Source: the human T2T-CHM13v2.0 reference genome, Homo sapiens
DNA: 64,000 nt
Direction: 5' to 3' (one strand)
Assembly (NCBI RefSeq): GCF_009914755.1
Contig: NC_060933.1
Of this stretch, positions 894 through 42,982 are shown piece after piece. The notes below the pieces were generated by a model. That model made no database searches, was not told where the DNA came from, and was given only the letters and a program-made list of their open reading frames with translations. The translations under genes were made by a program, and so were the position numbers. Position 1 is the stretch's first letter. Every line of letters begins with the position of its first letter.

Positions 894-3800
894 TTCCGGA
901 AGATTCCATTCCATTGCATTCCATTCCATTCCATTACCCTGCACTCGCGTTGATTCCATTCCATTCCATTCCATTACGTTCCGTTCCTTTCCGTTCCGTT
1001 CCATTCCATTCCATTCCATTCCGTTCCGTTCCGTTCCGTTCCATTCCATTCCATTCTATTCGGGTTAATTCCATTCCATTCCATTCGATTGCAATCGAGT
1101 TGATTCCATTCCATTCCATTCCATTCCTTTCAATTCCATTCCATTCCTTTCCATTCCATTACGGATGATTCCATTCCACTGCATTACATTCCATTCCATT
1201 CCCCTGTACTCGGGTTGATTCCATTCCATTACATTCCATTCCATTCTATTCCATTCCATTCCATTCCATTCCGGAAGATTCCATTCCATTGCATTCCATT
1301 CCATTCCATTCCCCTGCACTCGCGTTGATTCCATTCCATTCCATTCCATTCCATTCCATTCCATTCCGATCCGTTCCATTACATTCCATTCCATTCCATT
1401 CCGTTCCGTTCCATTCCATTCCATTCCATTCCATTCTATTCGGGTTAATTCCATTCCATTCCATTCGATTGCAATCGAGTTGATTCCATTCCATTCCATT
1501 CCAATCCATGCCATTGCACTCGTGTTGATTCCATTCTTTCCATTCCATTCAAGTTGAATCCATTACATTGCATTCCATTCGATTCGATTCCATTCGATTG
1601 CACTCGGGTTGATTCCACGGCATTGCATTCCATTCCATTCCATTCCATTCCTTTCCATTCCATTCCATTCCATTCCATTCGGATTCATTCTATTCAATTC
1701 CCTTACACTCCATTACATTCCATTCCATTCGTGTAGTTTCCATTCCATTCCATTCCATTCCTCTCCATTCCATTGCACTCGGGTTGATTCCATTCCATTC
1801 CATTCCATTCCATTCCATTCCATTCCATTCCGGATGATTCCATTCCATTGAATTCCATTGCATTCCATTCCCCTGCACTTGAGTTGATTCCATTCCATTC
1901 CATTCCATTCCTTTCTTTTCCATTCCATTCCATTCCATTCCATTCTTTCGTGTTTATTCCATTCCATTCTATTCCATTCCATTCCATTGAAATCGAGTTG
2001 ATTCCATTCCATTCCATTCCATTCCATTCCATTCCATTCCATTCCGGATGATTCCATTCCATTCCATTCCATTCCATTCCATTCCATTCCATTGTACTCG
2101 GGTTGATTCCATTCCGTTGCATTCCATTCCATTCCATTACATTCCATTCCGTTGCATTCTATTCCATTACATTCGTATTGATTCTATTCAACTCCCTTAC
2201 TCTCCATTACATTCCATTCCATTCGGGTTGTTCCATTCCATTCCATTCCATTCCACTCCATTCCATTGCACTCGGGTTGATTCCATTCCATTCCATTCCA
2301 TTCCATTCCATTCCATTCCATTCCGGATGATTCCATTTCATTGCATTCCATTCCATTCCATTCCCCTGCACTCGCGTTGATTCCATTCCATTCCATTCCA
2401 TTCCATTCCATTCCGTTCCGTTCCATTCCATTCCATTCCATTCCATTCCATTCCATTCCATTCCGTTCCTTTCCATTCCATTCCATTCCATTCTATTCGG
2501 GTTAATTCCATTCCATTCCATTCCATTGCAATCGAGTTGATTCCATTCCATTCCATTCCATTCCATTCCATTCCATTCCATTCCATTCCATTCCTTTCCA
2601 TTCCATTATGGATGATTCCATTCCATTGCATTCCATTCCATTCCATTCCATTCCATTACATTCCGTTCCATTCCATTCCATTACATTCGGATTGATTCTA
2701 TTCAATTCCCTTACACTCCATTACATTCCATTCCATTCGGGTAGTTTCCATTCCATTCCATTCCATTCCTCTCCATTCCATTGCACTCGGGTTGATTCGA
2801 TTCCATTGCATTCCATTCCATTCCATTCAATTCCATTCCGTTCCATTCCATTCCATTACATTCAGATTGATTCTATTCAACTCCCTTACTCTCCATTACA
2901 TTCCATTCCATTCCGGTTGTTCCATTCCATTCCATTCCATTCCACTCCATTCCATTGCACTCGGGTTGATTCCATTCCATTCCATTCCATTCCATTCCAT
3001 TCCATTCCATTCCGGAAGATTCCATTCCATTGCATTCCATTCCATTCCAATCCCCTCCACTCGCGTTGATTCCATTCCATTCCATTCTATTCCATTCCAT
3101 TTCCTTCCTTTCCGTTCCATTCCATTCCATTCCATTCCATTCCATTCCATTCCGTTCCATTCCATTCCATTCCATTCTTTTCGGGTTAATTCCATTCCAT
3201 TCCATTCGATTGCAATCGAGTTGATTCCATTCCATTCCATTCCATTCCATTCCATTCCAATCCATTCCATTCCTTTCCATTCCATTACGGATGATTCCAT
3301 TCCATTGCATTCCATTCCATTCCATTTCCCTTTACTCGGGTTGATTCCATTCCATTCCATTCCAATCCATGCCATTCCACTCGTGTTGATTCCATTCTTT
3401 CCATTCCATTCAAGTTGAATCCATTCCATTGCATTCCATTCCATTCGATTCCATTCGATTGCACTCGGGTTGATTCCATTCCATTGCATTCCATTCCATT
3501 CCGTTCCATTCCATTCCATTCTGTTCCATTCCATTTCATTACATTCAGATGGATTCTATTCAATTCCCTTACACTCCATTATATTCCAATCCATTCTGGT
3601 TGTCTCCATTCCATTCCATTCCATTTCACTCCATTCCATTGCACTCGGGTTGATTCCATTCTATTCCATTACATTCCATTCCGTTCCATTCCGGATGATT
3701 CCATTCCATTGCATTCCATTCCATTCCATTCCCCTGCACTCGGGTTGATTCCATTCCATTCCATTCCATTACATTCCCTTCCATTCTATTCCATTCCATT

Positions 3801-6800
3801 CGGATTGATTCTATTCAATTCCCTTACACTCCATTACATTCCATTCCATTCGGGTAGTTTCCTTTCCATTCCATTCCATTCCTCTCCATTCCATTGCGCT
3901 CGGGTTGATTCCATTCCATTGCATTCCATTCCATTCCATTCCATTCCATTCCGGATGATTCCATTCCATTGCATTCCGTTCCATTACATTCCCCTGCACT
4001 CGGGTTGATTCCATTCCATTCCATTCCATTCCATTCGATTCCACTCCATTCCAATTCTTTCCATTCCATTCTATTCCGTACCATTCCATTCCATTCCATA
4101 CAATTCCATTCCATTCCATTCCACTCCGTTCCGTTCCGTTCCGTTCTGTTCCGTTCCATTCCATTCCACTCCATTCTATTCGGTTTAATTCCATTCCATT
4201 CCATTCCATTCCATTCCATTCTATTCCATTCCATTGCAATCGAGTTGAATCCATTGCATTCCATTCCATTCCATTCCATTCCATTCCATTCCATTGCATT
4301 CCGGAAGATTCCATTCCATTGCATTCCGTAAGATTCCATTCCATTGCATTCCATTCCATTCCATTCCATTCCATTCCATTCCATTCCATTGTACTCTGGT
4401 TGATTCCATTCCATTGCATTGCATTCCATTCCATTCCATTCCATTCCATTCCGTTCCATTCCATTCCATTACATTCGGATTGATTCTTTTCAACTCCCTT
4501 ACTCTCCATTACATTCCATTCCATCCGGGTAGTTTCCATTCCATTCCATTCCATTCCTCTCCATTCCATTGCATCGGGTTGATTCCATTCCATTCCATTC
4601 CATTCCATTACATTCCATTCCATTCCGGATGATTCCATTCCATTGCATTCCGTTCCATTACATTCCCCTGCACTCGCGTTGATTCCATTCCATTCCATTC
4701 CATTTCATTCAATTCCATTCCATTACAATTCGTTCCATTCCATTCTATTCCGTACCATTCGATTCCATTCCATACCATTCCATTCCATTCCATTCCGTTC
4801 CATTCCGTTCCATTCTGTTCCATTCCATTCCATTCCATTCTATTCGGGTTAATTCCATTCCATTCCATTCCATTCCATTCCATTCTGTTCCATTCCATTG
4901 CATTCGAGTTGAATCCATTGCATTTCATTCCATTCCATTCCATTCCATTCCATTCCATTCCATTCCGGAAGATTCCATTCCATTGCATTCCATTCCATTC
5001 CATTCCCCTGCACTCGCGTTGATTCCATTCCATTCCATTCCATTCCATTCCATTCCATTCCGTTCCGTTCCATTCCATTCCATTCCATTCCATTCCATTC
5101 CGGAAGATTCCATTCCATTGCATTCCATTCCATTCCATTCCCCTGCACTCGCGTTGATTCCATTCCATTCCATTCCATTCCATTCCATCCATTCCGTTCC
5201 GTTCCGTTCCATTCCATTCCATTCCATTCCATTCCATTCCGTTCCGTTCCATTCCATTCCATTCCATTCTATTCGGGTTAATTCCATTCCATTCCATTCG
5301 ATTGCAATCAAGTTGATTCCATTCCATTCCATTCCATTCCATTCCATTCCTTTCCATTCCCTTCCGGATGTTTCCATTCCATTGCATTCCATTCCATTCC
5401 ATTCCCCTGTACTCGGGTTGATTCCATTCCATTCCATTCCAATCCATGCCATTCCACTCGTGTTGATTCCATTCTTTCCATTCCATTCAAGTTGAATCCA
5501 TTCCATTGCATTCCATTCCATTCGATTCCATTCGATTGCACTCGGGTTGATTCCATTCCGTTGCATTCCATTCCATTCCATTCCATTCCATTCCATTCCG
5601 TTCCATTCCATTCCATTACATTCGGATTGATTCTATTCAATTCCCTTACAATCCATTACATTCCATTCCATTCGGGTAGTTTCCATTCCATTCCATTCCA
5701 TTCCTCTCCATTCCATTGCACTCGGGTTGATTCCATTCCATTGCATTCCATTCCATTCCATTCAATTCCATTCCGTTCCATTCCATTCCATTACATTCGG
5801 ATTGATTCTATTCAACTCCCTTACTCTCCATTACATTCCATTCCATTCGGGTTGTTCCATTCCATTCCATTCCATTCCACTCCATTCCATTGCACTCGGG
5901 TTTATTCCATTCCATTCCATTCCATTCCATTCCATTCCATTCCATTCCTTTCCGTTCTGTTCCATTCCATTCCATTCCATTCCAATCCATTCCATTCCGT
6001 TCCGTTCCGTTCCATTCCATTCCATTCCATTCTATTCGGGTTAATTCCATTCCATTCCATTCGATTGCAATCGAGTTGATTCCATTCCATTCCATTCCAT
6101 TCCATTCCATTCCATTCCATTCCTTTCCATTCCATTACGGATGATTCCATTCCATTGCATTCCATTCCATTCCATTCCCCTGTACTCGGGTTGATTCCAT
6201 TCCATTCCATTCCAATCCATGCCATTCCACTCGTGTTGATTCCATTCTTTCCATTCCATTCAAGTTGAATCCATTCCATTGCATTCCATTCCATTCCATT
6301 CCCCTGCAGTCGGGTTGATTCCATTCCATTCCATTCCATTCCATTCCATTCCATTCCATTCCGTTCCGTTCCGTTCCGTTCCATTCCATTCCATTCTATT
6401 CGGGTTAATTCCATTCCATTCCATTCCATTCCATTCCAATCGAGTTGATTCCATTCCATTCCATTCCATTCCACTCCATTCCAGTCCTTTCCATTCCATT
6501 CCACTCGGGTTGATTCCAATGTATTCCTTTCCATTCCATTCCATTCCATTGCAATCGAGTTGATTCCATTGCTTTGCATTCCATTCCATTCCATTCCATT
6601 CCGGATGATTCCATTCCATTGCATTCCATTCCATTCCATTCCCCTGCACTCGGGTTGATTCCATTCCATTCCATTCTATTCCGTTCCATTCCATTCCATT
6701 CCATTGTATTCGGGTTAATTCCATTCCATTCCATTCCATTCCATTCCATTACAATCGAGTTGATTCCATTCCATTCCATTCCATTCCAGTCCTTTCCATT

Positions 6801-42800: not shown

Positions 42801-42982
42801 ACCATTCCATTCCATTCCATTCCGTTCCATTCCGTTCCATTCTGTTCCATTCCATTCCATTCCATTCTATTCGGGTTAATTCCATTCCATTCCATTCCAT
42901 TCCATTCCATTCTGTTCCATTCCATTGCATTCGAGTTGAATCCATTGCATTTCATTCCATTCCATTCCATTCCGGAAGATTC
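894..42982. promoter_or_regulatory. Dispersed set of ~30 consensus three-unit heat shock elements (TTCnnGAAnnTTC) embedded in satellite
   Basis: TTC-CG-GAA-GA-TTC at about 894, 1269, 3010, 4299, 4963, 5098, 7653, 10268, 10892, 13982, 14741, 16157, 16656, 18024, 18897, 22012, 23989, 25630, 26509 (TTC-CG-GAA-GC-TTC), 27877, 28257, 31221, 31860, 34226, 35983, 36282, 36382, 36467, 38058, 40803, 42336 and 42970. The motif match is direct; function is inferred from known HSF1 binding to Sat III. Confidence 0.65.
26979..35450 (+). repeat. Second copy of a large intra-array duplication of ~1-8,850 (offset ~26.6-27.3 kb)
   Basis: Rare variants are shared in the same order: TACTTTCGGA (381/27359), CGTGTTTATT (1949/29281), CTATTAATTTCC (~6826/~33379), CACTCGCTTTG (7701/34274), TTATATTACAATCC (8411/35004) and GCACTCGGATTG (8733/35326). 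ORF 76..375 and ORF 27054..27353 translate almost identically. Confidence 0.9.

What the first reader, a model, noticed from the sequence alone, without database searches (positions are those of the whole stretch)
894..42982. Perfect heat-shock elements (TTC-cg-GAA-ga-TTC) encoded about every 1.3 kb, only in sub-domain A
Seen: one recurring module, ATTCCGGAAGATTCC, swaps a single CATTC step for a GAA in exact 5-bp register. This yields nTTCn-nGAAn-nTTCn, the canonical three-unit inverted pentamer bound by an HSF1 trimer. I count ~32 intact copies in 1-43 kb and none in 43-64 kb, where only the one-mismatch sister TTCCGGATGATTC (or its reverse complement) occurs. Established: HSF1 binds 9q12 Sat III under stress, forms nuclear stress bodies and drives G-rich transcription. 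Pure GGAAT direct repeats are not canonical HSEs. Inference: this module, not the bulk pentamer, may specify which Sat III sub-arrays respond to stress, so a single T>A change that was then amplified may have created an HSF1 platform. The central CpG could add methylation sensitivity.
Basis: partly seen in the sequence, partly recalled or inferred. Interest (0 to 1): 0.8.

Follow-up and report, generated by a model that had tools for sequence, protein, structure and literature searches.

The report
Heat-shock factor sites in chromosome 9 satellite
One recurring 13-base word in the chromosome 9 satellite III array is a textbook heat-shock-factor binding site, present in about 13,000 copies and only in some sub-arrays, but a recent preprint already reports that such sites are patchy in this satellite and follow HSF1 binding.

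Summary
TTCCGGAAGATTC occurs 31 times, plus one TTCCGGAAGCTTC. That makes 32 perfect three-unit heat-shock elements (HSEs), all at 894-42982 and none at 43-64 kb. No other inverted nGAAn pair, two-unit or three-unit, exists anywhere in the 64 kb.

The module is a derived allele of a ~60-bp HSat3B5 block. Its GAT sister is commoner: 45 copies in the same domain and 21,931 genome-wide, against 12,968 for GAA. The two alleles carry different linked flanking variants, so GAA spread by amplification rather than by repeated mutation. Domains B and C mostly lack the whole block, not just the A.

Samples along chr9 from 49.5 to 74 Mb carry the module. Five chr15 HSat3 samples have no HSE. chrY DYZ1 samples carry HSEs of a different sequence.

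The functional idea is plausible, but HSF1 binding could not be tested here. The idea is also largely in print: a preprint reports HSF1 motifs in sub-regions of HSat3 arrays with HSF1 ChIP-seq following motif density, and HSEs in Y satellite III are published. The exact word, its copy number and its allele history appear to be new detail.

The parts
1..44000 (+). Domain A: HSat3B5 sub-array, CATTC on the + strand, carrying the HSE block; nested repeats of about 5.3-5.9 kb and about 26.5-27 kb
   Evidence: k-mer sharing with A falls from 0.92 to 0.46 between the 43-44 kb and 44-45 kb bins
894..906 (+). perfect 3-unit HSE TTCCGGAAGATTC
1269..1281 (+). perfect 3-unit HSE
3010..3022 (+). perfect 3-unit HSE
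4299..4311 (+). perfect 3-unit HSE; a broken copy TTCCGTAAGATTC lies just downstream
4963..4975 (+). perfect 3-unit HSE
5098..5110 (+). perfect 3-unit HSE
7653..7665 (+). perfect 3-unit HSE
10268..10280 (+). perfect 3-unit HSE
10892..10904 (+). perfect 3-unit HSE
13982..13994 (+). perfect 3-unit HSE
14741..14753 (+). perfect 3-unit HSE
16157..16169 (+). perfect 3-unit HSE
16656..16668 (+). perfect 3-unit HSE
18024..18036 (+). perfect 3-unit HSE
18897..18909 (+). perfect 3-unit HSE
22012..22024 (+). perfect 3-unit HSE
23989..24001 (+). perfect 3-unit HSE
25630..25642 (+). perfect 3-unit HSE
26509..26521 (+). variant TTCCGGAAGCTTC, still a perfect 3-unit HSE
27877..27889 (+). perfect 3-unit HSE; partner of 894 in the ~27-kb repeat
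28257..28269 (+). perfect 3-unit HSE; partner of 1269 in the ~27-kb repeat
31221..31233 (+). perfect 3-unit HSE
31860..31872 (+). perfect 3-unit HSE
34226..34238 (+). perfect 3-unit HSE
35983..35995 (+). perfect 3-unit HSE
36282..36294 (+). perfect 3-unit HSE; first of a local cluster spaced 100 and 85 bp
36382..36394 (+). perfect 3-unit HSE (cluster)
36467..36479 (+). perfect 3-unit HSE (cluster)
38058..38070 (+). perfect 3-unit HSE
40803..40815 (+). perfect 3-unit HSE
42336..42348 (+). perfect 3-unit HSE
42970..42982 (+). perfect 3-unit HSE, the last in the window
44001..58975 (+). Domain B: HSat3B5 sub-array with no inverted nGAAn pair, few copies of the block class and a lower CpG density
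58976..64000 (-). Domain C: inverted HSat3B5 (GAATG on the + strand) with no HSE; the junction reads ...ATTCCGTGTGCAATGGAAT...

Best explanation
The window is pure HSat3 subfamily B5 from the 9q12 array. Domain A contains a conserved block of about 60 bp: (ATTCC)n-TTCCGGA[A/T]GATTC-CATTCCATTGCATTCC...CCCCTGCACTCG[C/G]GTTG. In its GAA allele the central pentamer reads GGAAG between two ATTCC units in exact 5-bp register. This gives nTTCn-nGAAn-nTTCn, the minimal canonical site for one HSF1 trimer.

The GAA allele most likely arose once by T>A on a GAT block, and was then copied by the unequal exchange and segmental duplication that build the array. The assembly holds about 13,000 copies, essentially all in chr9 HSat3 as far as could be checked.

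Inferred, not shown here: on heat shock, HSF1 trimers load first on these sites. Their local density, about 0.3-0.7 per kb where present and zero in some sub-arrays, would then set which parts of 9q12 nucleate stress bodies and G-rich transcription. Flanking direct pentamers and the GAT sister would add weaker binding.
For: Shown here:
- 32 of 32 three-unit HSEs, and every two-unit inverted pair in the 64 kb, come from this block. Domains B and C have none.
- All 32 share the downstream flank CATTCCATTGC. GAA and GAT sit in the same block.
- The alleles are haplotype-linked. The downstream variant GTTCCATTA follows 0 of 32 GAA blocks and 22 of 45 GAT blocks (p = 4e-7). The upstream GAATCCATTGCATTT precedes 10 of 32 GAA and 0 of 45 GAT (p = 6e-5). 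CTCG-G-GTT follows 0 of 32 GAA and 22 of 45 GAT.
- Eleven module pairs lie 26.6-27.4 kb apart, which shows copying.
- Genome-wide the GAA 13-mer occurs 12,968 times, against 117 for the backward control. Only 13 of these are on chr1-8. That is 17% of all 76,189 TTCNNGAANNTTC strings and 40% of their excess over the control.
- A 140-bp block query gave 104 listed matches, all on chr9 between 51.5 and 76.2 Mb, with 40 of 448 candidates scored.
- chr9 samples: 41 modules in 13 HSat3 pieces of 10 kb (49.17-52.9 Mb), and 2 in each 3-kb piece at 60, 67 and 74 Mb.
- A GAT-only stretch exists. The 86 chr9 sister hits listed span 48.79-49.163 Mb (84 of them from 49.067 Mb), whereas the first chr9 GAA hit is at 49,162,020 and the next at 49,287,719.
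- Five chr15 HSat3 pieces of 3 kb have no two-unit or three-unit HSE. Two chrY DYZ1 pieces have 3 HSEs of other sequences.

From papers (passages only):
- HSF1 motifs lie in sub-regions of HSat3 arrays, and HSF1 ChIP-seq from heat-shocked MCF7 cells is enriched where motif density is high.
- Perfect HSEs and HSF1 ChIP on Y satellite III.
- Putative HSEs at 9q12 as an unpublished observation.
- The HSP70 HSE probe uses the same GGAAT/ATTCC units.
Against: - No binding data were analysed here, and Figure 2b of the preprint could not be seen. It is therefore not shown that its motif blocks are this module or that they lie on chr9.
- HSF1 binds pHuR98 satellite III in vitro although its NGAAN units are not arranged as a canonical HSE. 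That needed more than 12.5 ng of protein, against more than 3 ng for the HSE probe. HSF DNA-binding domains also crystallise on head-to-tail satellite III repeats. Bulk pentamers therefore have some affinity.
- The GAT sister keeps the critical G and may bind.
- Among the 13 chr9 samples of 10 kb, the counts are close to Poisson (mean 3.15, variance 3.64). Patchiness is shown only by the window and by the 49.07-49.29 Mb stretch.
- The chr15 and chrY samples are small (15 kb and 6 kb).
- chr10 to chrY were not enumerated for the module.
Confidence: 0.6

Rival explanations
1. Bulk-pentamer or chromatin model. HSF1 accumulates at 9q12 mainly through very many low-affinity direct GGAAT units, or through the state of the chromatin. 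The GAA module would be a neutral hitch-hiking variant that adds little.
For: [quoted passage not shown] HSF DNA-binding domains co-crystallise with head-to-tail satellite III repeats. Secondary stress bodies form on other pericentromeres under HSF1 overexpression or severe stress. The module's abundance needs no selection, since any word in an amplified unit becomes abundant.
Against: The chr15 HSat3 array, given as 8 Mb, is rich in pentamers and had no inverted pair in 15 kb sampled. From recall, it is not a primary site. The preprint reports HSF1 ChIP-seq following HSF1-motif density, not the evenly spread pentamer-type (TEAD) motifs. The two primary loci, 9q12 and Yq12, are the two arrays where perfect HSEs were found here.
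Confidence: 0.2
2. Block-class model. The T>A change is not a switch. The GAT sister (TTC-cg-GAT-ga-TTC) binds HSF1 nearly as well, so the density of the whole block, both alleles together, determines loading.
For: The sister keeps the G of the central unit and both flanking TTC units. The widely used HSP70 HSE probe has an imperfect GAC unit. The contrast between A and B/C is as strong for the block class (119, 12 and 6 copies) as for GAA alone.
Against: The imperfect unit of the HSP70 probe is an outer one, whereas here the central unit is hit. That breaks both inverted pairs: no TTCnnGAA or GAAnnTTC remains.
Confidence: 0.15
3. Other-factor model. The same T>A change creates CCGGAAG, the core of class I ETS sites (consensus recalled, not taken from a call), inside the palindrome TTCCGGAA. 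ETS-family factors might use the module when it is unmethylated.
For: Sequence only: CCGGAAG occurs in every module. The GAT allele gives only CCGGAAT on the other strand.
Against: [quoted passage not shown] The same preprint describes HSat3 as highly CpG-methylated heterochromatin.
Confidence: 0.05

Closest known systems
HSF1-motif sub-regions of HSat3 arrays (Franklin et al., bioRxiv 10.1101/2024.10.22.616524; passages and Methods section 13 read)
   Same: It makes the same claim at array scale: HSF1 motifs are confined to sub-regions of HSat3 arrays in T2T-CHM13v2.0, and HSF1 ChIP-seq from heat-shocked MCF7 cells (GSE209667) is enriched where motif density is high.
   Different: The passages seen give no motif sequence, copy number or allele history, and do not name chr9 for this point. 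Motifs were called with JASPAR matrices through SEA. Figure 2b and the supplements could not be seen.
Perfect HSEs in Y-chromosome satellite III, DYZ1 / HSat3A6 (Penin et al. 2021, PMC7889540; passages)
   Same: Canonical HSEs are interspersed in a (CATTC)n satellite at a primary stress-body locus. The design is the same: one nGAAn pentamer in register between TTC units, as in ATTCC-AGAAC-ATTCC here. The paper reports four perfect HSEs per 3564-bp unit and HSF1 ChIP.
   Different: The words differ (TTCCAGAACATTC and TTCGAGAACCTTC), there is no central CpG palindrome, and the subfamily and chromosome differ. The origin therefore appears to be independent.
Proximal HSE of the HSP70 promoter (probe printed in Jolly et al. 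2002, PMC2173303)
   Same: It uses the same GGAAT/ATTCC units in inverted 5-bp register and is bound by an HSF1 trimer.
   Different: It is a single-copy promoter element with one imperfect unit (GAC). The satellite module has three perfect units and about 13,000 copies in heterochromatin.
pHuR98-type 9qh satellite III, bulk (GGAAT)n
   Same: Same locus, and HSF1 binds it in vitro.
   Different: It has direct repeats only, described as non-canonical, and needed more HSF1 protein. The module is the inverted-repeat exception within that background.

Membership tests
Canonical heat-shock element (HSE) | At least three contiguous nGAAn units in alternating orientation and exact 5-bp register | tested here: met
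   TTCNNGAANNTTC matched 32 times. The contexts read ATTCC|GGAAG|ATTCC.
Canonical heat-shock element (HSE) | The conserved G of each GAA triplet, contacted by the recognition-helix arginine (stated in the passage) | tested here: met
   All three units carry GAA or TTC. The GAT sister keeps the G but loses the third base.
Canonical heat-shock element (HSE) | Binding of an HSF1 trimer in vitro | not testable with these tools
   No binding assay is available. The exact 13-mer occurs in only 2 papers of the library, and neither title concerns HSF1 or satellite III.
Canonical heat-shock element (HSE) | Heat-induced HSF1 occupancy in cells | not tested
   There is only region-level published correlation. 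No reads were analysed here.
HSat3 subfamily B5 (chr9 9q12 array) | (CATTC)n-derived satellite at chr9 pericentromere | tested here: met
   About 100-110 CATTC or GAATG per kb in every 2-kb bin, with no non-satellite stretch. The window is placed at C9:57412001-57476000.
HSat3 subfamily B5 (chr9 9q12 array) | The subfamily-specific 24-mer listed for HSat3B5 in Table 1 of Altemose 2014 (as printed) | tested here: met
   74 matches at up to 1 mismatch: 58 up to 43.75 kb, 15 in 44-59 kb and 1 on the minus strand at 60.2 kb. All three domains are therefore B5.
Class I ETS site (consensus recalled, not from a call) | The CCGGAAGT core | tested here: inconclusive
   CCGGAAG is present in every module, but the next base is A, not T. 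No binding evidence.

The most novel reading that the evidence does not exclude
A single derived T>A in one HSat3B5 block created the high-affinity HSF1 site that makes 9q12 the primary stress-body locus. The Y-chromosome DYZ1 satellite reached the same design independently with different words, while the large chr15 array never did. On this reading, the primary-versus-secondary hierarchy of stress-body loci, and the variation inside 9q12, would be set by the density of a countable, allele-defined word. That density could differ between people along with the 9qh size polymorphism.
Probability: 0.35. Interest if true: 0.6.

Novelty: already known. Interest (0 to 1): 0.38.

Why it matters
Since 2002 it has been unclear why HSF1 picks 9q12, because the pentamer repeats there are not arranged as a canonical HSE. 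A 2022 review still called the number of HSF1 sites unknown. An explicit word with a copy number gives a handle that short-read k-mer counting can use without any mapping. The relevant figures are about 13,000 copies of GAA and about 22,000 of the one-base sister, with HSE-free B5 sub-arrays beside HSE-bearing ones. The GAT sister and the HSE-free sub-arrays serve as built-in natural controls. The general principle, however, is already in a preprint.

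Tried and rejected
1. Full sampling of the chr9 array every 310 kb. Only the first 20 pieces (47.0-52.9 Mb) were granted. Small 3-kb pieces replaced them, so the profile beyond 53 Mb rests on three 3-kb samples.
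2. Per-chromosome enumeration of the module. The genome search lists only the first 100 places, so chr10-chrY were not enumerated. The chr9 assignment rests on three things: the chr1-8 listing (13 hits), a density estimate of 0.38/kb x 27.6 Mb = about 10,600 against 12,968 observed, and the BLAST listing.
3. CpG retention as a proxy for protection from methylation. The non-CG forms number 1,524 for GAA and 6,977 for GAT. The comparison is confounded by euchromatic background and by a CpG-decayed GAT form on chr1:127.5 Mb, so no conclusion was drawn about methylation. It only supports GAT being the older form.
4. The idea that the palindrome TTCCGGAA is a relic of an inversion junction. The one junction in the window (about 58,976) reads ATTCCGTGTGCAATGGAAT and makes no HSE. 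Not supported.
5. Gap-type HSEs. Only TTCn7TTCnnGAA occurs (31 copies), and it is the same module seen with its upstream unit. The other gap forms occur 0 times.
6. Two 2026 papers on HSATIII and stress bodies and a 2024 HSat FISH paper held nothing on HSEs in the passages searched.

Full report
**What is there**

The window is chr9:57,412,001-57,476,000 of T2T-CHM13 and is satellite throughout. Every 2-kb bin holds about 200-225 CATTC or GAATG, and no 200-bp stretch is poor in the pentamer core.

The + strand reads CATTC up to about 58,975 and GAATG after that. A k-mer comparison shows a sharp change of sub-array near 44.0 kb: sharing with domain A falls from 0.92 to 0.46. I therefore use three domains:
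- Domain A: 1 to ~44,000.
- Domain B: ~44,001 to 58,975.
- Domain C: 58,976 to 64,000, inverted.

The 24-mer that Altemose et al. 2014 list for subfamily HSat3B5 (Table 1 row seen) matches 74 times at up to 1 mismatch, in all three domains. The domains are therefore sub-arrays of one subfamily, the one that paper assigns mainly to chromosome 9.

**The observation**

TTCCGGAAGATTC occurs 31 times, all on the + strand, from 894 to 42,982. The general three-unit pattern TTCNNGAANNTTC, searched on both strands and so also covering GAANNTTCNNGAA, occurs 32 times. These are the same 31 plus TTCCGGAAGCTTC at 26,509, against a mean of 1.03 in shuffles. None lies in the last 21 kb. At domain A's density 15 would be expected there (P about 3e-7).

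A stricter finding is that every two-unit inverted pair (TTCnnGAA or GAAnnTTC) in the whole 64 kb also belongs to this module, and domains B and C have none.

Two details need correcting:
- The spacing averages 1,357 bp but ranges from 85 to 3,115 bp.
- The GAT sister is mainly a feature of domain A. It has 45 copies there and only 4 elsewhere.

**Anatomy**

The contexts show that GAA and GAT are alleles of one conserved block of about 60 bp: (ATTCC)n-TTCCGGA[A/T]GATTC-CATTCCATTGCATTCC...CCCCTGCACTCG[C/G]GTTG. Counting the 15-mer within two mismatches, the block class occurs 119 times in A, 12 in B and 6 in C. B and C mostly lack the block itself, not merely the A.

The alleles carry different linked variants:
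- Downstream GTTCCATTA follows 0 of 32 GAA blocks but 22 of 45 GAT blocks (p = 4e-7).
- Upstream GAATCCATTGCATTT precedes 10 of 32 GAA blocks and 0 of 45 GAT blocks.
- CTCG-G-GTT follows 0 of 32 GAA and 22 of 45 GAT blocks.

Domain A is built of nested repeats with offsets near 5.3-5.9 kb and 26.5-27 kb. Eleven pairs of modules lie 26.6-27.4 kb apart. Together these results indicate that the GAA allele arose on one block lineage and was copied, rather than arising repeatedly.

**Genome scale**

| Word | Copies in the assembly | Backward control |
|---|---|---|
| GAA 13-mer | 12,968 | 117 |
| GAT sister | 21,931 | 45 |
| All TTCNNGAANNTTC | 76,189 | 43,994 |

Only 13 of the GAA copies fall on chr1-8, and the first chr9 hit is at 49.16 Mb. 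The module alone makes up 17% of all perfect three-unit strings and 40% of their excess over the control. The tool states that its counts of repeats are lower bounds.

Once the module is removed, 13,853 more matches remain on the reverse strand than on the forward strand. The Y samples explain this. DYZ1 pieces carry TTCCAGAACATTC and TTCGAGAACCTTC on the CATTC strand, and the first of these occurs 5,015 times in reverse against 515 forward genome-wide. This fits the four perfect HSEs per 3,564-bp DYZ1 unit reported by Penin et al. 2021 (passages).

**Distribution**

- Along chr9, 13 HSat3 pieces of 10 kb between 49.17 and 52.9 Mb hold 0-6 modules each, 41 in all. The 3-kb pieces at 60, 67 and 74 Mb hold 2 each.
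- A 140-bp block query gave 104 listed matches, all on chr9 between 51.5 and 76.2 Mb, with 40 of 448 candidates scored.
- The 86 chr9 sister hits listed run from 48.79 to 49.163 Mb, 84 of them from 49.067 Mb. The first chr9 GAA hit is at 49,162,020 and the next at 49,287,719. GAT-only and HSE-free stretches of about 100 kb therefore exist.
- Among the 13 samples of 10 kb, the counts are near Poisson (mean 3.15, variance 3.64). Patchiness is shown by particular stretches, not by that sample.
- Five chr15 HSat3 pieces of 3 kb (9-13 Mb) contain no inverted pair at all.

**Direction of change**

GAT is commoner. It is present in all three domains and in a GAT-only sub-array. A CpG-decayed form, TTCCAGATGATTC, clusters on chr1:127.54-127.60 Mb. 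Among the chr1-8 places listed, GAA shows no such cluster. GAT is therefore the older state and GAA the derived one. This is an inference by parsimony, and no ape genomes were available to test it.

**How it most likely works**

By the standard definition, the word is a minimal perfect site for one HSF1 trimer. Its units (GGAAT/ATTCC) are the same as in the HSP70 HSE probe printed in Jolly et al. 2002. I infer that HSF1 loads first on these sites and that their density sets where stress bodies nucleate within 9q12.

The inference fits three things:
- Primary loci are 9q12 and Yq12, the two arrays where I found perfect HSEs.
- The chr15 array had none in the samples.
- The preprint of Franklin et al. 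states that HSF1 motifs lie in sub-regions of HSat3 arrays and that ChIP-seq reads from heat-shocked MCF7 cells are enriched where motif density is high (passages).

I could not see its Figure 2b or its supplements, which are closed, so I cannot say that its motif blocks are this module.

**Against a simple switch**

- HSF1 binds pHuR98 satellite III without a canonical arrangement, though it needs more protein.
- HSF DNA-binding domains crystallise on head-to-tail satellite III repeats (one passage).
- The GAT sister keeps the critical G, and the HSP70 probe itself has an imperfect GAC unit.
- The same T>A change also makes CCGGAAG, which I recall as the class I ETS core. The preprint passages report no strong ETS enrichment in HSat3.
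- Methylation sensitivity at the central CpG was not testable. The CpG-retention comparison was confounded.

**Novelty**

The following are already in print:
- HSEs in Y satellite III (Penin 2021).
- 'Putative HSEs' at 9q12 as an unpublished observation, with the number of sites called unknown (Vourc'h et al. 2022).
[quoted passage not shown] 2023).
- Patchy HSF1 motifs that track ChIP-seq (Franklin et al.).

The exact 13-mer or its complement appears in only two papers of the searchable library. By their titles, one concerns CRISPR editors and the other zebrafish ZNF32. I did not open either. The principle is therefore known, while the word, its copy number, its sister allele and the HSE-free B5 sub-arrays appear to be new detail. 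I rate the finding as real, correctly read in the main, and of moderate interest.

Noticed in passing
window 42,001-45,000 and L042 (chr9:68,075,779-68,078,778); more widely chr9 ~53-60 Mb versus ~62-70.5 Mb: A 3-kb stretch spanning the A/B boundary is 100% identical (0 of 3000 mismatches) to a stretch 10,621,778 bp downstream. Matches to a 140-bp query come in pairs offset by about 10.59-10.63 Mb over 55.7-59.9 Mb, and by about 8.72-8.74 Mb near 53.3-53.6 Mb. This suggests either a very recent multi-megabase duplication inside the chr9 HSat3 array or an assembly artefact. The searched passages of the Altemose 2021 preprint do not mention it.
   Followed up: partly
window 58,960-58,990: A strand-switch junction reads ...CATTCCATTCCGTGTGCAATGGAATGG... 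G-rich transcripts would run away from each other on its two sides. It is presumably one of the more than 200 inversion breakpoints reported for the chr9 HSat3B5 array. It makes no HSE.
   Followed up: partly
window 1-43,500 versus 43,501-58,950: CpG density is 26.8 per kb in domain A against 19.8 per kb in domain B. ACTCGCGTTG occurs at 0.85 per kb only in A, and CCGG at 2.0 against 0.4 per kb. Domain A may be a younger or less CpG-decayed sub-array, and the GAA allele travels with the CGCG variant.
   Followed up: partly
chr1:127,543,709-127,600,774 (genome listing): TTCCAGATGATTC, the sister word with its CpG decayed to CA, is clustered on the minus strand of a chr1 pericentromeric satellite: 19 hits in 57 kb. 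I did not fetch or classify this array.
   Followed up: no
window 36,282-36,479: Three perfect HSEs lie within 200 bp, spaced 100 and 85 bp, from a local tandem duplication of the block. This is the densest HSE cluster in the window.
   Followed up: no
L014 (chr9:48,550,001-48,560,000): A looser GAATG-rich satellite (702 GAATG per 10 kb against about 1,050 in the main array) lies proximal to the main array. It has no GAA module and one sister. It was not classified.
   Followed up: no
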